Part shown: positions 29,001 through 35,000 of the stretch, one piece after another
Layout: each line of letters begins with the position of its first letter
Numbering within the stretch: the stretch's first letter is position 1
Assembly (NCBI GenBank): GCA_964471155.1
Contig: CAYYFX010000001.1
Location: forward strand, 45,596-109,595
Source of the DNA: an uncultured Gemmatimonadota bacterium
GTDB lineage: Bacteria; ARS69
Length of the DNA stretch: 64,000 nt
Direction: 5' to 3'
Position numbers: made by a program

Positions 29001-32000
29001 GAAGAAGAACGCGAGCAGTGCCGTGGTGAGGAATCCGCCGGCCAAGCTGTCCAGGGCGAAGAGCGCGGAGATGCGCCAGAGGATGCCGCGGGATTGCGGC
29101 GAGAGGCGGGTGGCGACGCGGGCGGCGGCCCCGGCCGCGGGCTCCGCCGCCGGCGAGAGGCGCGCGTACGCGAACGCCGTGGCGAGCAGGATGCCCGCGT
29201 AGACCGCCAAGGTGGCTCGGCCCGCGGCGATCTCGTCCGCGCCGCTCAAGTGGTGCAGCAGCGCGGGCAGCCCCGCGAGGAGACCGCCGAGCGCGTGGCC
29301 CGCGTCCTGCAGCACGTTGTACCAGGCGAAGGAGCGCGTGCGCGCGGCGTCGGGCGCCGCCGCGGCCACGAGGGTCTGGTCCAGGATGAGCGACGCGCCG
29401 CGGTCGCGGCCCATGCCGTTCAGCATCCCGAGGAAGGACGCGGCCAGGAGCACGGCGTGCGACGACGCGTAGGCCACCGCGAGCCCGCCGGCCGCGCCGA
29501 GCAGGGCGACGAGGACGAGCGAGCGCCGGCGGCCGAGGCGATCCGCGAACAGCGTGACGAGGAGCGCGGCGGCAGTGGCGCCGGCGAGACCCGCGGCCAC
29601 CACCGCGCCGATCTCCGCGGGGTCGAAGCCGCGGCGCGCGAGGTGGATCCCGATGAGGACGCCGATCAACCCGGTGGCCAGCGCGCGCAGGAACGCGGCG
29701 GCATACAGGAGCGGGAGGTCACGAGCGTGCGGGGACACGGCGGCCTCCGCGGCACGGGGACGGGCGCGCAGCATACCCGAGGTCGCGCGGTCGTGTACGA
29801 TCCGAGCTTCCCCGGTGGAGCGCATGGGAACCGACTGGATCACCACCTCCACGCTGCTGCTTCGCCTCCGCGACTTCGAGGACGCCGCGTGGCGCCACTT
29901 CGTGGAGCGCTTCCGCCGTCCCATCGTGGCGTTCGCGCTGGACCTGGGCGTGCCGCCCGAGGACGCGGAGGATGTGGCGCAGGACGCGCTGGGCGACTTC
30001 GCACAGGCGTACCGCGAGGGCCGCTACGACCGCACCCGCGGGCAGCTCCGGCGCTGGCTCTTCGGCATCGCGTACCACCGCGCCGCGCGGCATCGCCGGC
30101 GCGCGGCGAAGGCGCGGGCGGAGCGCGCGCCCACGGACGCGCTGCTGGAGATCCCGGACGAGGCGGCGGCCGGCTCGATGTGGGATCGCCGCTGGGACGC
30201 GGAGGTCCTGGAGGAATGCGTGAAGCAGGCGCGCCGGGAGTTCGCGCCGGAGGTGTTCGCGGCGTTCGAGCTGGTGGTGGGCCACGACCGCGCGCCGGCC
30301 GACGCCGCGCGCGAGCTCGGCGTCGGCGTGAAGTCCGTGTACAACGCGAAGCACCGCGTGCTGCGCAGGATCCGCGAGCTGCGCGCCGCGCTCGAGGCCA
30401 CGGAGGAAGGCGATGACGCCGTGTCCTGACCCTGAGGTCCTGGAGCGGTACGCGGAGGGCGCGCTGGACGGCGCCGCGCGCGCCGACGTGGCGGCGCACG
30501 TGACGGCGTGCGCGGGGTGCCGCGCGCTGCTGGACGACGTGAGCGCGAATCTGCCGCTGGCGTCGTCGGTGCGGGAAGCGCTTCGGCGCATCGACCGGGC
30601 CGCGCACGCGGAGGCGCCGGAGCGGATCGGGGCGTTCCGCGTGCTGCGGGAGCTGGGCCGCGGCGGCATGGGCGTGGTGTACCTGGCCGAGCAGGAGCGC
30701 CCGCGCCGGCAGGTGGCGCTGAAGGTGCTGCACCCCGGCGGCTCGCCGGCGGCGCTGCGGCGGTTCGAGCACGAGGCGAACCTGCTGGCGCACCTCAAGC
30801 ACCCGGGCATCGCGCAGGTGTACGAGGCTGGGATCGCGGACGGGCGGCCGTACCTTGCGATGGAGCACGTGCAGGGGGACGCCCTGGACGTGTTCGCGCA
30901 GCGGCGCGGCCTTTCGCCGCGGGAGCGCCTGGCGCTCGTCGCCGACGTCTGCGATGCCGCGCATCACGCGCACGTGCGCGGGGTCGTGCATCGCGATCTG
31001 AAGCCCGCGAACATCCTCGTGGAGGAGATCGACGCGGGCGCGGACCCGGGCGGCACGGCCGGCGCGGACCGTCGCCATGCCGCCGCCCGACCGAAGGTCC
31101 TGGACTTCGGCGTCGCGCGCGCCACCGCCGCGGATCTCATGACGATGACCGTGGGCACGGAGGCGGGGCAGCTCCTCGGCACCATCCCCTTCATGAGCCC
31201 GGAGCAGCTTGCCGGCGATCCCGCGAAGGTGGATGCCCGCTCCGACGTCTACGCGCTCGGCGTCATCGCGCACTGGCTCCTGGCCGGGGACTTCCCGTAC
31301 TCCATCCGGGACTGCTCCCTGGTGGAAGCGGCCCGGCGCATCCAGGAGGACGCTCCCGTACCGCTCGCGTCCGTGGCGCCGCGGCTGAAGGGGGACGCGG
31401 AGGTGATCGTGGCGACGGCGCTGGCGAAGGACCCGGCGCAGCGCTACCAGAGCGCGTCCGAGATGGCGGCGGACCTCCGGCGCTTCCTGGCGGACGAGCC
31501 CATCCTGGCGCGCCCGCCCGGCGCGGCGGAGCAGTTGCGCCGGTTCGCGCGCCGACACCGCGCGCTCGCGGGCGCGGCGGCCGTGGTGGCGGGGGTGTTG
31601 GCGGTTGCCGCGGTGGGCGGGTCGTGGCTGGCGGTGCGCGCCACGCGCGCGGAGCGGGCGGCGCGCGCGCAGCTCGCGCGGGCGGAGTCCATCCACGAGT
31701 TCCTGGAGGGGATGCTCTCGTCGTCGAATCCGTACGAGGGCGAGGGCAACGCGGAGACCACGGTGCCCGCGATACTGGCGCGCGCCGCCGCCGAGCTGGA
31801 CGGCGGGCGCTTCTCCGGGCAGCCCGAGGTGGAGGGCGCGGTGCGGAAGACCCTGGGAAACACGTACTGGGCCGCCGCGAACTACGAGGCCGCCGAGCGG
31901 CAGCTCCGCGCGGCGCTGGCGGCGTTCGAGGGAGCGCCCGGCGAGGACGCGGCCGCGGTGGCGGTGATGGCGGATCTGGGACTGCTGCTTGCGGAGACGA

Positions 32001-35000
32001 ACCGCTTCGAGGAGGCCGAGGCCATGTTCCGCGCACAGCATGACGCGGCCCTGGCGCGGCTGGGCCCCGAGCACGTGCAGACGGTGAAGGGACTGGGGTC
32101 CTTGGCCGGGGTGCTGGCGGATCAGCGGAAGCTGGCGGAGGCGGAGTCCGTGCTGGCGCTCGCCCTGCCGCACTCGGCGAGGTTCACGGGGAAGTACGCG
32201 GACGTGCACCGGTCGAACCTGAACACGCTGGGCGGGCTGCGCTTCTTCCGCGGCGATCTCCCCGGCGCGGAGGCGGCGCTGCGCGAGGCGGCGGAGGTGT
32301 CGCGCCGGGTGTACGGCCCGGCGCATCCCAGCACGATCGCCATGCTGGAGTCCGTGGCCGCCGTGCTCGGCCAAGGCGGCGATGTGGCCGGCGAGGAGGC
32401 GGCGCTGGAGCAAGTGCTCTCCCTCTACCGGCAGGCGTTCGGCGCAGAGCACCCGCGGGTCGCCGCTGCCACGAACAGTCTGGGCATGGCGCTCTTCCGC
32501 CAGGGCGACGCGGCCGCGGCGGAGCCCTTGATTCGCGAGGCGCTGGCGATGAACCGCCGCGTGAGCGGGAGCGAGCACCGGGAGACGGCGCGCAGCCTCA
32601 ACGACCTGGCGCAGGTCCTGCGCGCGCAGGGCCGGCTGGCGGAGGCCGAGCCGCTGTACGTGGAGTCGCTGGGCATCCACGAGCGGGTCTTCCGCGAGGA
32701 CTCCCCGGGGGTCGCGATCGTTCTGCGCAACCTGGGAAGGCTCCGCGTGCAGCAGGCGCGGTACGCGGAGGCGGAGGCGCTGCTCGTGCGCGCGATCGGC
32801 ATCCAGCGGGCCGCGCTCGGGGACGAGCATGCGGCCACGAAGGCGACCGCGCGGGAGCTGGTGGCGCTCGGGAAGGCGTGGGGGCGGGCGGAGCTGGCGG
32901 AGACCTGGGGGGGGCTGGCGGGAACGTGAGTTTCGCCCTCACTCCATGCCGAGCCGGCGGATCCGGTCCAGCATCCCCCTATGGGGGTCATGCGGATCCC
33001 CCTCCCGGGCACCCCCCGCAAGTGCGCTGTTGACCGACGTTGGCGGAGCCCAAAGAATCGCGAGGGCGCACAGGACACGCCGCCTCATCGCGTGATCGTC
33101 CGGTCCAGGGAGAGTTGAGGTGCTCCGGTCATGAGAGCCCATCGCACGTCGAGAACCATTCCGGTTTCGCCCCGCCGGGGTCGATCCTCTCGCCCGTGGC
33201 GCCCGGCGGCCGGTTGCGTCGGCGGCCTCCTCGCCCTCGCCCTCGCCACCCCCGCCACCGCCCCCGCCTTCGACCCGGCCTCCGCCCTCTCCTTCAACCG
33301 CACCCTCGCCGCGGACTCCTTCGAGGGCCGCTTCTCCGGCCTCTCCTCGGGGCGCAAGGTCGAGGACTTCGTGGCCTCGCGCTTCGAGGACTGGGGCCTG
33401 GCCCCCGCCGGCGCCGCCGGGACGTACTTCGCACCCTTCGAGATGCTGGTGACCCAGGAGCAATCCGCGCTCCTGGAGCTGAAGGATACGCCCTTCGGCG
33501 ATCTCCGCTTCGTCTACGGCGACGACTTCCATCTCTGCACGAACTCCGGCTCCGCGGACGTCACCGCCGACGTCGTCCTGGTGGGCCACGGTCTCTCCTC
33601 GCCGGATCGCGAGTGGGACGACTACGCGGATCTGGATGTGCGCGGGAAGATCGCGCTCATCCTCCGCGGCACGCCGGACAACGGCCACGACTGGGGCGAG
33701 GCCGGCTCCCGCGACTCCACGCTGGCCGAAGCCGTGCGCCGCGGCGCCGTGGGCGTGATCTTCGTGCAGGGGAAGCCCGTGCAGGGCGCGGCCGTGCACG
33801 TGCTGTACCCGAAGGTGCCCTGCGTGTACGCCGACGAGCGCGTGCTGGAGCACGTGCTGATGAACACGGGCTGGGACCTCAAGCGGTACAAGGACGCCTT
33901 GAAGGAGAAGCCCACGCACCTCGTCCCGGACAAGCGCATGCGCGTGAGGACGAGGGTGCGCGTTCTCGATGACGGCAACGCGCGCAACGTGGTCGCCCTC
34001 CTCGAGGGTTCCGATCCCGCGCTGAAGCACGAGCTGATCCTCATCGGCGGCCACATGGACCACGTGGGCGTGAACGGCGACGGCATCATCTTCAACGGCG
34101 CCAACGACAACGGCTCCGGAACGTCGGTCGTCCTGGAGCTGGCCCGCTGCTTCGCCGCCATGCCGGAGCGCCCGAAGCGCACGCTGGTCTTCCTCACGTT
34201 CGCGGCGGAGGAGCAGGGGCTCCTGGGCTCCGAGGCCTTCGTCGCACAGCCCACCGTTCCCCTGGACTCCGCAGTGGCCATGCTGAACTTCGACATGACC
34301 GGCCACGGCAACGGCAAGGCGTACCTGGGCGGCGGCGAGCTGTACCCGGAGATCCGCGCCGCCTTCACGGCATCGCTGGACTCCGCCCGCGCCGACAGCG
34401 TGCTGATCCGGCGCGGTTGGCGCGGCAACTCCTCCGACCACGGGCCGTTCCTGCAGCTCGGAATCCCCACGATGAACCTGGGCAGCGACGGCGACCACCG
34501 CTTCTACCACAGCCTGCAGGACGATCCCGCGTGGATCAGCGAGGCGGCGCTGGGCGCCGTGGGCCGTACCGCGCAGGACTGGATCCTGATGCTCGCGAAC
34601 CACGGAACGCCGCTCCTCCCTCCGCACCGCGACGGGCGCACGCTCCTGTACGCCTCCGACCAGGTGGACTTCGCGCCGCGGCCGGCCGCCCCGAACGCGC
34701 CGAGGACGCCGCTCCCGGTCTGGGTGCGCGGATCCTTCCGCTGGACCCCGGCGACCGAGTTCGCGACTCCCGCGTGGCTGGACTCCCTGGCCGCACTGCG
34801 CCGCGCCGCGGCCGCCGACGGCCCGCCGGTCGTGCGGTCGCTGAAGGCCGTGCGGGACGCGTCCCGCAGCGGGACGCGCGCCGTGCTGCTCGGCCTCCGC
34901 TCCGCCGCTCCCGGCGAGGGCGTGGGCATCCCGCCCGCGCGCCGCCCGCTGCTCGAGAGCCTGGACGTGGCCGCGCTGCTCTGGGACGGCGGCGCGCCCG

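What the first reader, a model, noticed from the sequence alone, without database searches (positions are those of the whole stretch)
29824..32929. ECF sigma factor overlapping a Ser/Thr kinase whose N-terminus looks like a zinc anti-sigma (ZAS) domain
The ECF sigma gene's last 17 nt overlap the start of an 838-aa kinase. Before its kinase catalytic domain, the kinase has HVTACAGCRALLDD, which is the HxxxCxxC zinc-finger signature of ZAS-type anti-sigma factors; a transmembrane helix and a long TPR array follow. This implies a fusion in which the anti-sigma factor is itself a transmembrane kinase, able both to sequester and to phosphorylate its sigma. The window also holds a second STK-TPR (22189..25047) and a second STK-associated-type ECF sigma (25961..26533), indicating expansion of this signalling mode.
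Basis: partly seen in the sequence, partly recalled or inferred. Interest (0 to 1): 0.55.

Follow-up and report, generated by a model that had tools for sequence, protein, structure and literature searches.

The report
Sigma factor with anti-sigma/kinase partner
An alternative sigma factor gene is followed by a membrane Ser/Thr kinase whose first ~65 residues are a genuine zinc-type anti-sigma domain; this conserved two-gene module was catalogued before but its mechanism has never been tested.

Summary
An ECF sigma gene (29824..30429) overlaps by 17 nt an 838-aa gene (30413..32929).

The 838-aa protein has four parts:
- An N-terminal class-I zinc anti-sigma domain. C4, H29, C33 and C36 are invariant in 30 relatives.
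- A Hanks kinase with every catalytic motif intact.
- One transmembrane helix.
- A TPR array.

Evidence for the anti-sigma domain:
- Pfam zf-HC2 scores 26.4 bits.
- A profile of the domain hits RslA, RsiW, DdvA and ChrR in the PDB.
- A similar three-helix domain from the window's other kinase gives no anti-sigma hit.

All six loci read from the kinase side carry a same-family sigma directly upstream. Other neighbours vary. The sigma keeps the acidic DAED core-binding motif, unlike phospho-activated ECF43 sigmas.

Most likely the kinase is itself the anti-sigma factor, and kinase signalling controls sigma release. That step is inferred only.

The window's second kinase/sigma pair is ECF43-type, a different mode and not an expansion of this one. 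Casas-Pastor et al. 2021 already noted an N-terminal zinc finger on kinases of planctomycete group ECF62. This locus is therefore a new member, possibly in a new phylum.

The parts
29796..29801 (+). TACGAT, a candidate housekeeping-type -10 box 28 nt upstream of the sigma start. This is an inference only.
   Evidence: The block GTCGTGTACGATCC is identical in the close relative L040 (kinase 88% identical), although a ~38-nt indel lies just upstream of it. A TAnnnT box lies 15-60 nt upstream of the sigma start in 8 of 13 orthologous loci. Shuffles give a mean of 3.6, and 4 of 1000 reach 8. The sigma-70 consensus scan found no full promoter here.
29824..30429 (+). ECF-type sigma factor gene (201 aa). 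It has the conserved N-terminal W-x-T-T-S/T-T-x-L motif and retains the acidic sigma-2.2 motif (PEDAEDVAQD).
   Evidence: Sigma70_r2 scores 30.3 bits (cut-off 24) and r4_2 scores 18.7 bits, below its cut-off. TIGR02937 scores 40.9 against a cut-off of 42.9. TIGR02989 scores 40.7 against 124.6, so the sigma is not a member of that family. The family alignment is A1 with 38 sequences. A ribosome-binding site GGTGGAG is at 29814-29820.
30413..30429 (+). 17-nt overlap of the sigma stop with the kinase start, suggesting translational coupling. A GGAGGA ribosome-binding site is at 30402-30407.
   Evidence: Read directly from the sequence. The relative L040 overlaps by 23 nt. More distant orthologues have gaps of 15-145 nt.
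30413..32929 (+). Gene for the 838-aa anti-sigma-domain / Ser-Thr kinase / TM / TPR protein.
30413..30610 (+). Class-I zinc anti-sigma domain, residues 1-66. The ligand codons are C4 30422-24, H29 30497-99, C33 30509-11 and C36 30518-20.
30638..31450 (+). Hanks-type Ser/Thr kinase domain, residues 76-346, with all catalytic motifs intact.
   Evidence: Pkinase scores 124 bits. The motifs present are GRGGMGVV at 82, VALK at 101-104, HRDLKPAN at 193-200, DFG at 231 and SPE at 262.
31562..31636 (+). Predicted single transmembrane helix, about residues 384-408, preceded by RRFARRHR.
   Evidence: Kyte-Doolittle maximum of 2.29 at residue 384. The window's second kinase has its maximum at the same position. 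Arginines also follow the helix, so the topology is inferred from the need for ATP at the kinase and not from charge bias.
31730..32926 (+). C-terminal TPR array, inferred to be the extracytoplasmic sensor.
   Evidence: TPR_12 scores 189 bits over 7 stretches and TPR_10 scores 155 bits.
22189..25047 (+). Second kinase-TPR protein (952 aa) with the ERW...C..D..LR.EV..LL N-terminus seen in many kinase-TPR relatives. It is not part of the ZAS module and is listed for contrast.
   Evidence: Its N-terminal domain has no Pfam hit and no anti-sigma fold match.
25961..26533 (-). Second sigma, ECF43-type, with sigma-2.2 reading HTLNATALVHEAY and no DAED motif. Listed for contrast.
   Evidence: Sigma70_ECF PF07638 scores 185 bits. 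TIGR02999 scores 206.7 bits against a cut-off of 126.

Best explanation
This is a two-gene ECF signalling module in which the anti-sigma factor and a receptor Ser/Thr kinase are one polypeptide.

Proposed mechanism:
1. The sigma keeps the acidic DAED motif that contacts RNA polymerase core. It is therefore probably intrinsically competent to bind core.
2. At rest the sigma is held at the membrane by the kinase's N-terminal Cys-His-Cys-Cys zinc anti-sigma domain.
3. That domain and the kinase lie in the cytoplasm. One helix crosses the membrane. The TPR array lies outside as the sensor.
4. A signal at the TPR array activates the kinase.
5. Phosphorylation of the anti-sigma domain or its linker, or of the sigma itself, weakens the complex and frees the sigma.

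The result would be a switch that could be reversible and need no proteolysis. It would be a built-in version of M. tuberculosis PknB acting in trans on the ZAS anti-sigma RshA.

Shown here: domain identities, ligand conservation, intact catalytic motifs, gene linkage and DAED retention. Inferred: sigma binding (about 0.8), membrane topology, and phosphorylation as the release trigger (about 0.4).
For: The anti-sigma domain:
- C4-x24-H29-x3-C33-x2-C36 is invariant in 30 relatives.
- Pfam zf-HC2 is above its cut-off on the isolated domain.
- TIGR02451 (ChrR family) matches residues 6-46.
- A profile of the domain finds only ECF anti-sigma factors at E up to 0.02: RslA, RsiW from its residue 1, DdvA and ChrR.
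- A control three-helix domain from the window's other kinase gives none.

Gene linkage:
- The sigma lies directly upstream on the same strand in the window, L040, L041 and L042-L045. It belongs to the same family at 38-96% identity.
- Starting from the sigma side, L001, L002, L003 and L005 carry an HxxxCxxC kinase downstream.
- Five further sigma/kinase pairs have matching contig lengths, which suggests a shared contig but does not prove it.
- Other neighbours differ from locus to locus.

The sigma and the kinase:
- The sigma retains DAEDVAQ. ECF43 sigmas replace it with uncharged Ser/Thr residues (PMC8999054 and PMC13147305).
- The kinase motifs are intact.
- One relative, L006, lost the zinc ligands but kept the N-terminal domain and the kinase. 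This suggests the conserved role does not depend on zinc or redox chemistry.

Precedent:
- PknB phosphorylation of ZAS anti-sigma factors releases SigH and SigE (PMC8999054; supplement to 10.1101/2019.12.11.873521).
Against: - No binding, zinc or phosphorylation data exist for any member of this family.
- Only three helices are predicted with confidence, and confidence falls after residue 50. The fourth helix that contacts sigma-2 in canonical domains is therefore uncertain.
- No conserved Ser/Thr was found in sigma region 2.2 or in the linker between the anti-sigma domain and the kinase. The phosphorylation target is unknown.
- Foldseek E-values are weak (0.1-2) because the domain is short.
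- One sigma relative, L007, has no kinase next to it.
- The charge bias around the transmembrane helix is ambiguous.
Confidence: 0.5

Rival explanations
1. Docking, not inhibition. The anti-sigma-like domain only recruits the sigma as a substrate. Phosphorylation then activates the sigma, as in ECF43 systems such as EcfP/PknT and EcfK/PknS.
For: Reviews list kinase-linked ECF groups, including ECF62, as probably phosphorylation-regulated (PMC8999054; PMC7826278). The N-terminal Thr residues T7, T8 and T10 are invariant or nearly invariant in the sigma family and could be phosphorylation sites. The kinase motifs are intact.
Against: The sigma keeps the DAED acidic motif, whose absence is what makes ECF43 sigmas depend on phosphorylation. 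The structurally and sequence-matched anti-sigma domains are inhibitory in their own systems (established knowledge of RslA, RsiW and ChrR). The TT.T motif is absent from the Pirellula sigma that also has a ZAS-kinase partner (L008).
Confidence: 0.2
2. Conventional proteolytic anti-sigma factor with an independent kinase output. The sigma is released by regulated intramembrane proteolysis, as for B. subtilis RsiW. The kinase phosphorylates other targets in parallel.
For: The closest full-length sequence match, from residue 1 (MSCPE...), is RsiW, which is known from established work to be a regulated-proteolysis substrate. The layout of anti-sigma domain, one transmembrane helix and an outside domain is the canonical one.
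Against: A ~300-aa kinase inserted between the anti-sigma domain and the membrane is conserved across relatives down to about 40% identity. That is hard to explain if it were unrelated to sigma control. No site-1 or site-2 protease gene is linked in any locus read.
Confidence: 0.2
3. Redox sensor for the kinase. The zinc site senses thiol oxidation and regulates kinase activity without binding the sigma.
For: ZAS sites of the Cys-His-Cys-Cys type can be redox-reactive, as in RsrA (PMC4598750).
Against: Tight, conserved linkage to one sigma family. A relative without zinc ligands keeps the same architecture (L006). By established knowledge, most ZAS domains, including RsiW and RslA's membrane relatives, are structural and not redox switches.
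Confidence: 0.06
4. Chance motif or mis-called start. The HxxxCxxC has no function.
For: The whole-protein zf-HC2 score of 20.1 bits is below the Pfam cut-off of 22.2.
Against: Four invariant ligands in 30 sequences that are otherwise 28-88% identical. The start is fixed by the conserved M-x-C-P N-terminus. The fold and profile matches are specific to anti-sigma factors. It is the only such motif in the window.
Confidence: 0.02

Closest known systems
ECF62 group of planctomycete ECF sigma factors and their +1 kinases (Jogler et al. 2012; Casas-Pastor et al. 2021, supplementary text)
   Same: The sigma is followed by a one-TM-helix protein kinase that 'contains a zinc-finger in N-terminal'. TPR proteins occur in the context. 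No conserved autoregulatory promoter is reported.
   Different: ECF62 is described as 100% Planctomycetes. Its largest subgroups have WD40 sensors, not TPR. The zinc finger was recorded but not interpreted as an anti-sigma domain, and reviews list the group as lacking an anti-sigma factor. The host here appears to be outside Planctomycetes: the only named kinase relative, at 51% identity, is from Candidatus Eiseniibacteriota. Whether this sigma scores as ECF62 could not be tested.
Membrane-anchored ZAS anti-sigma factors RsiW (B. subtilis SigW) and RslA (M. tuberculosis SigL)
   Different: Those proteins go from the anti-sigma domain straight into the membrane. Here a complete Hanks kinase sits between the two.
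ECF43 sigma / Hanks kinase pairs (EcfP-PknT of V. parahaemolyticus, EcfK-PknS of X. citri)
   Same: ECF sigma genetically paired with a transmembrane Hanks kinase. The kinase-TPR body here is 36-43% identical to kinases that carry the same ERW...EV..LL N-terminus as the window's second kinase.
   Different: ECF43 sigmas lack DAED and need phosphorylation to bind core. This sigma keeps DAED. The N-terminal helical domain of the window's ECF43-type kinase showed no detectable relation to an anti-sigma domain.
PknB control of the ZAS anti-sigma RshA (SigH) and of RseA (SigE) in M. tuberculosis
   Same: A Ser/Thr kinase phosphorylates a ZAS-type anti-sigma factor and thereby releases an ECF sigma.
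   Different: In M. tuberculosis the kinase and the anti-sigma factor are separate, unlinked proteins. Here they are fused.
RsbW/SpoIIAB anti-sigma factor kinases
   Same: One protein is both an anti-sigma factor and a protein kinase.
   Different: The folds are unrelated (GHKL ATPase fold against Hanks fold plus ZAS domain). Those proteins are soluble, act on group 3 sigmas, and phosphorylate an anti-anti-sigma factor.

Membership tests
Class-I (ZAS) anti-sigma domain, Pfam zf-HC2 PF13490 | H/C-x23-26-H-x3-C-x2-C zinc-ligand motif | tested here: met
   C4-x24-H29-x3-C33-x2-C36, invariant in 30 aligned relatives.
Class-I (ZAS) anti-sigma domain, Pfam zf-HC2 PF13490 | Score above the Pfam gathering cut-off | tested here: met
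   26.4 bits against 22.2 for residues 1-76 scanned alone. The score is 20.1 bits, below the cut-off, when the whole 838-aa protein is scanned.
Class-I (ZAS) anti-sigma domain, Pfam zf-HC2 PF13490 | Helical anti-sigma-domain fold like that of solved sigma/anti-sigma complexes | tested here: met
Class-I (ZAS) anti-sigma domain, Pfam zf-HC2 PF13490 | Encoded next to, and co-oriented with, its cognate ECF sigma | tested here: met
   17-nt overlap in the window. A same-family sigma lies directly upstream in L040-L045. An HxxxCxxC kinase lies downstream of the sigma in L001, L002, L003 and L005.
Class-I (ZAS) anti-sigma domain, Pfam zf-HC2 PF13490 | Binds and inhibits the sigma; binds zinc | not testable with these tools
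   No multimer prediction was possible, and experiments are needed.
Hanks-type Ser/Thr protein kinase | Pkinase domain with G-loop, catalytic Lys, HRD..N, DFG and APE/SPE motifs | tested here: met
   Pkinase 124 bits. All motifs are present.
ECF (group 4) sigma factor | [quoted passage not shown] | tested here: met
   Sigma70_r2 30.3 bits, above its cut-off. r4_2 18.7 bits and TIGR02937 40.9 bits are just below theirs. The conserved C-terminal segment VYNAKHRVL is taken to be the region 4.2 helix-turn-helix.
ECF43-type phosphorylation-activated sigma (Sigma70_ECF PF07638 / TIGR02999) | The sigma-2.2 DAED motif is replaced by uncharged Ser/Thr residues, and the protein matches PF07638/TIGR02999 | tested here: not met
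   Sigma 29824..30429 reads PEDAEDVAQD and does not match PF07638 or TIGR02999. The window's other sigma (25961..26533) does meet both features.
ECF62 (Casas-Pastor 2021 classification) | Protein kinase in +1 with one TM helix and an N-terminal zinc finger | tested here: met
   compared with the group description.
ECF62 (Casas-Pastor 2021 classification) | Sigma scores above the ECF62 group HMM threshold; Planctomycetes only | not testable with these tools
   The ECF Hub HMMs are not available here. Close sigma relatives in named genomes are all Planctomycetota/Phycisphaerae. The only named kinase relative, at 51% identity, is Eiseniibacteriota. A Pirellula sigma with a ZAS-kinase partner is only 25% identical (L008).

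The most novel reading that the evidence does not exclude
The kinase-fused anti-sigma domain makes a proteolysis-free, reversible transmembrane ECF switch. Ligand binding to the outside TPR array activates the kinase. The kinase then phosphorylates its own anti-sigma domain or the bound sigma and ejects it. A phosphatase would reset the system. If so, at least one of the kinase-associated ECF groups now listed as lacking an anti-sigma factor does have one, and it works differently from ECF43. The relatives with 3-5 tandem anti-sigma domains ahead of one kinase would then be multi-sigma hubs.
Probability: 0.3. Interest if true: 0.65.

Novelty: new member of a known kind. Interest (0 to 1): 0.42.

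Why it matters
Reviews treat anti-sigma control and Ser/Thr-kinase control of ECF sigma factors as separate categories. They also say that kinase-linked groups lack anti-sigma factors.

This locus and its relatives show that, in one kinase-linked family, the kinase carries a well-supported anti-sigma domain and the sigma keeps its core-binding acidic motif. The ECF43 phospho-activation model therefore probably does not apply to this family.

The module gives a compact two-gene test case for how phosphorylation and sequestration are combined. It also places this architecture outside Planctomycetes and with a TPR sensor. The idea is testable with standard assays. However, the domain combination itself was already recorded for ECF62.

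Tried and rejected
1. Is the conserved N-terminal helical domain of the window's ECF43-type kinase (and of the many relatives sharing its N-terminus) also a zinc-less anti-sigma domain?
- hhalign against the ZAS domain gave P = 0.06 and 0.12. The register was suggestive (C..C+..L.EVseNL against Cg.D..Lr.EVesLL) but not significant.
- There was no Pfam hit.
- The AlphaFold model has three helices, but Foldseek against the PDB found only generic bundles and no anti-sigma factor.
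- The idea is not supported. The domain served as a negative control.

2. Is there an autoregulatory ECF promoter upstream of the sigma?
- No shared -35/-10 pair was seen by eye across 13 orthologous upstream regions; no formal motif search was run.
- Only a TAnnnT box 15-60 nt upstream is enriched.
- The regulon could not be defined.

3. Did the fusion arise once?
- In a neighbour-joining tree of 115 kinase domains, 28 of 29 ZAS-bearing kinases have a ZAS-bearing nearest neighbour.
- Only 20 of them form one clean clade, so the question is unresolved.

4. Are the invariant N-terminal Thr residues of the sigma phosphorylation sites?
- The motif is absent from a Pirellula sigma that also has a ZAS-kinase partner. 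No conclusion can be drawn.

5. Complex prediction: the structure tool takes one chain and only sequences from the window or from the session's protein searches. A sigma/anti-sigma-domain model could not be made.

The supplements of the anti-sigma classification paper do not mention kinases.

7. Exact look-up of the window's kinase (P0001) in the contig index found nothing. The host organism is therefore inferred from relatives.

Full report
**Observation**

The window is about 72% G+C. On the plus strand, an ORF from ATG 29824 to TGA 30427-30429 encodes a 201-aa sigma-70 family protein. The public gene call on the same 118,963-bp contig has the same length (P0386). A second ORF starts at ATG 30413, inside the last 17 nt of the first, and runs to 32929. 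It encodes 838 aa and is identical to database protein P0001.

Pfam finds the following:
- Sigma70_r2 in the first protein, at 30.3 bits.
- zf-HC2 in the second protein, at residues 10-37. It scores 26.4 bits against a cut-off of 22.2 when the first 76 residues are scanned alone, and 20.1 bits in the full protein.
- Pkinase at residues 76-346, at 124 bits.
- Seven TPR_12 stretches.

The kinase has every catalytic motif: G-loop at 82, VALK at 101-104, HRDLKPAN at 193, DFG at 231 and SPE at 262. It has one strongly hydrophobic helix at about residues 384-408.

HVTACAGC sits at residues 29-36. It is the only HxxxCxxC in any ORF of at least 100 aa in all six frames of the window.

**Is the N-terminus a real anti-sigma domain?**

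Among the 120 best relatives of the 838-aa protein, 29 have the same N-terminus. In an alignment of 30 such N-termini (28-88% identical to the window's), C4, E11, H29, C33 and C36 are invariant and N46-L47 are nearly so. This gives Cys-x24-His-x3-Cys-x2-Cys, a full four-ligand ZAS signature.

A profile of this alignment was searched against all PDB sequences. At E up to 0.02 it finds only ECF anti-sigma factors:
- M. tuberculosis RslA, at 8.9e-6.
- B. subtilis RsiW, at 4.3e-5. The alignment starts at residue 1 (MSCPE...) and places RsiW C3, H30, C34 and C37 on the four invariant positions.
- M. xanthus DdvA, at 1e-3.
- R. sphaeroides ChrR, at 5e-3.

NCBIfam adds a sub-threshold ChrR-family hit at residues 6-46.

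An AlphaFold2 model of residues 1-76 has mean pLDDT 80.7, with helices at 7-14, 20-32 and 34-66. It was compared with solved structures:
- The 16 best Foldseek hits are all class-I anti-sigma domains solved in complex with their sigma factors: ChrR, RslA, RsiW and RskA. Probabilities reach 1.00 and TM is about 0.55, with weak E-values because the domain is short.

As a control, the equally small three-helix N-terminal domain of the window's other kinase was modelled (pLDDT 78). It gave no anti-sigma hit at all. The domain assignment is therefore well supported.

**Gene linkage**

Six loci were read from the kinase side. All have a sigma of 197-207 aa from the same family (38-96% identical) directly upstream on the same strand. 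The spacing ranges from a 23-nt overlap to a 145-nt gap. The other neighbours differ. The loci are:
- L040 and L041, from a relative whose kinase is 88% identical.
- L042, from a Candidatus Eiseniibacteriota genome.
- L043, L044 and L045.

Five more sigma/kinase pairs have matching contig lengths, which suggests they share a contig but does not prove it.

A scan of species-representative genomes was then run from the sigma side. It found clear relatives only in Planctomycetota/Phycisphaerae assemblies. Their downstream genes are as follows:
- L001, L002, L003 and L005: an HxxxCxxC kinase.
- The more distant Pirellula locus L008: also an HxxxCxxC kinase.
- L006: a kinase whose N-terminal domain has lost the zinc ligands.
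- L007: leuS on the opposite strand, so this sigma is an orphan.
- L004: the contig ends.

The module is thus a conserved two-gene unit. A whole-library profile search with the N-terminal domain gave 265 cluster representatives at E up to 1e-10. At least 33 of the best 150 carry a kinase.

**The sigma**

The sigma family (38 sequences) has an invariant N-terminal W-x-T-T-S/T-T-x-L motif. It retains the acidic region 2.2 motif, which reads PEDAEDVAQD in the window. This matters because ECF43 sigmas are inactive until phosphorylated, precisely because that motif is replaced by uncharged Ser/Thr residues (PMC8999054, PMC8103513 and PMC13147305).

The window's second sigma (25961..26533, minus strand) is of that ECF43 type. 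It scores TIGR02999 at 206.7 bits and its region 2.2 reads HTLNATALVHEAY. The window therefore holds two different sigma-kinase modules, not an expansion of one mode.

**Most likely mechanism**

[quoted passage not shown] The steps would be:
1. The cytoplasmic zinc domain holds the sigma at the membrane. I rate this about 0.8. It rests on homology to domains solved in sigma complexes and on the conserved linkage.
2. The sigma itself is competent to bind core, because DAED is retained.
3. The TPR array on the other side of the membrane senses a signal. This topology is inferred.
4. The kinase converts that signal into release of the sigma, by phosphorylating the anti-sigma domain, its linker or the sigma. 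I rate this about 0.4.

A trans-acting precedent exists. M. tuberculosis PknB phosphorylates ZAS anti-sigma factors and releases SigH and SigE.

The zinc-less relative L006 suggests the conserved role does not depend on zinc or redox chemistry.

The rivals are:
- The domain only docks the sigma for activating phosphorylation (0.2).
- The sigma is released by ordinary regulated proteolysis and the kinase has separate targets (0.2).
- The zinc site is a redox input to the kinase (0.06).
- The motif is chance (0.02).

**Comparison with the literature**

The main text of Casas-Pastor et al. [quoted passage not shown] Their supplementary description of the planctomycete group ECF62 records a one-TM-helix kinase in +1. 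That kinase is fused to WD40 repeats in the largest subgroups and 'contains a zinc-finger in N-terminal' in subgroups s1-s3.

A 2022 review lists ECF62 under sigmas not associated with an anti-sigma factor. It notes that groups other than ECF43 keep DAED and may work differently. In the searchable library I found no paper that interprets the zinc finger as an anti-sigma domain or tests it.

The architecture is therefore already catalogued. This locus is a new member with a TPR sensor. It probably comes from outside Planctomycetes, since the only named kinase relative is Eiseniibacteriota. Whether the sigma would score as ECF62 cannot be tested without the group HMMs. It does not belong to TIGR02989, where it scores 40.7 bits against a cut-off of 124.6.

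**Limits**

- No complex prediction could be run.
- No binding, zinc or phosphorylation evidence exists for this family.
- The fourth helix of the domain is uncertain.
- The phosphorylation target is unknown.
- The regulon could not be defined. Only a TAnnnT box upstream of the sigma is enriched (8 of 13 loci). That points to a housekeeping-type promoter and not to autoregulation.

**Verdict**

The domain interpretation is correct. The dual sequester-and-phosphorylate mechanism is plausible but untested. The 'expansion' claim is wrong. This is a moderately interesting new member of a catalogued but mechanistically unexplored kind.

Noticed in passing
window 21896-21939: A perfect pentanucleotide tandem repeat, (GAGGA) x 8.8, lies in the intergenic region between the divergent FlgD_ig/beta-helix protein gene (18428..21826, minus strand) and the second kinase gene (start 22189). 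A microsatellite made of Shine-Dalgarno-like units is unusual in a bacterial intergenic region. It could vary in length.
   Followed up: no
proteins P0241, P0243, P0253, P0271, P0278, P0301, P0302: Many metagenomic proteins carry 2-13 tandem copies of the HxxxCxxC anti-sigma-like domain. Some place 3-5 tandem copies in front of a single Hanks kinase, for example P0243 (1310 aa, 5 copies). No described function is known to me.
   Followed up: partly
window 22189-26533 compared with L040 3286-7322: In the close relative, the ECF43-type kinase and two Sigma70_ECF genes are co-directional and adjacent. In the window the kinase is on the opposite strand to the single remaining sigma, and a short-chain dehydrogenase gene (25115..25933) lies between them. 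This is a local rearrangement of the module.
   Followed up: partly
window 29796-29801, and 13 orthologous upstream regions: A TAnnnT box lies 15-60 nt upstream of the sigma start in 8 of 13 loci. Shuffles give a mean of 3.6, and 4 of 1000 reach 8. The block GTCGTGTACGATCC is identical between the window and L040. This suggests a housekeeping-type promoter and no autoregulation.
   Followed up: partly
L006 6543-8081: A Planctomycetota relative has the same sigma-kinase arrangement, but the kinase's N-terminal domain has lost the Cys/His ligands (RIEACEES in place of HxxxCxxC). It is a natural zinc-free variant.
   Followed up: partly
window 22189-22428, and the N-termini of 45 kinase relatives: The window's second (ECF43-type) kinase and many kinase-TPR relatives share a conserved ~60-aa three-helix N-terminal domain (ERW..IE.L...AL......R..FL..AC..D..LR.EVESLL). 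It has one invariant Cys and no Pfam family. A recent PknS structure paper could not resolve its first 81 residues, which AlphaFold predicts as three to four helices. The function of the domain here is unknown. No link to anti-sigma domains was detected.
   Followed up: yes
window 18428-21826 and loci L040, L042, L044: Large secreted-type proteins with a C-terminal FlgD_ig domain recur next to these sigma-kinase modules in several genomes, but not at a fixed position.
   Followed up: no
L009 5905-6882: A Phycisphaeraceae ECF sigma is fused at its C-terminus to an HLDVVACPMC zinc-finger segment. This is the opposite fusion partner for a ZAS-like motif, a sigma instead of a kinase.
   Followed up: no
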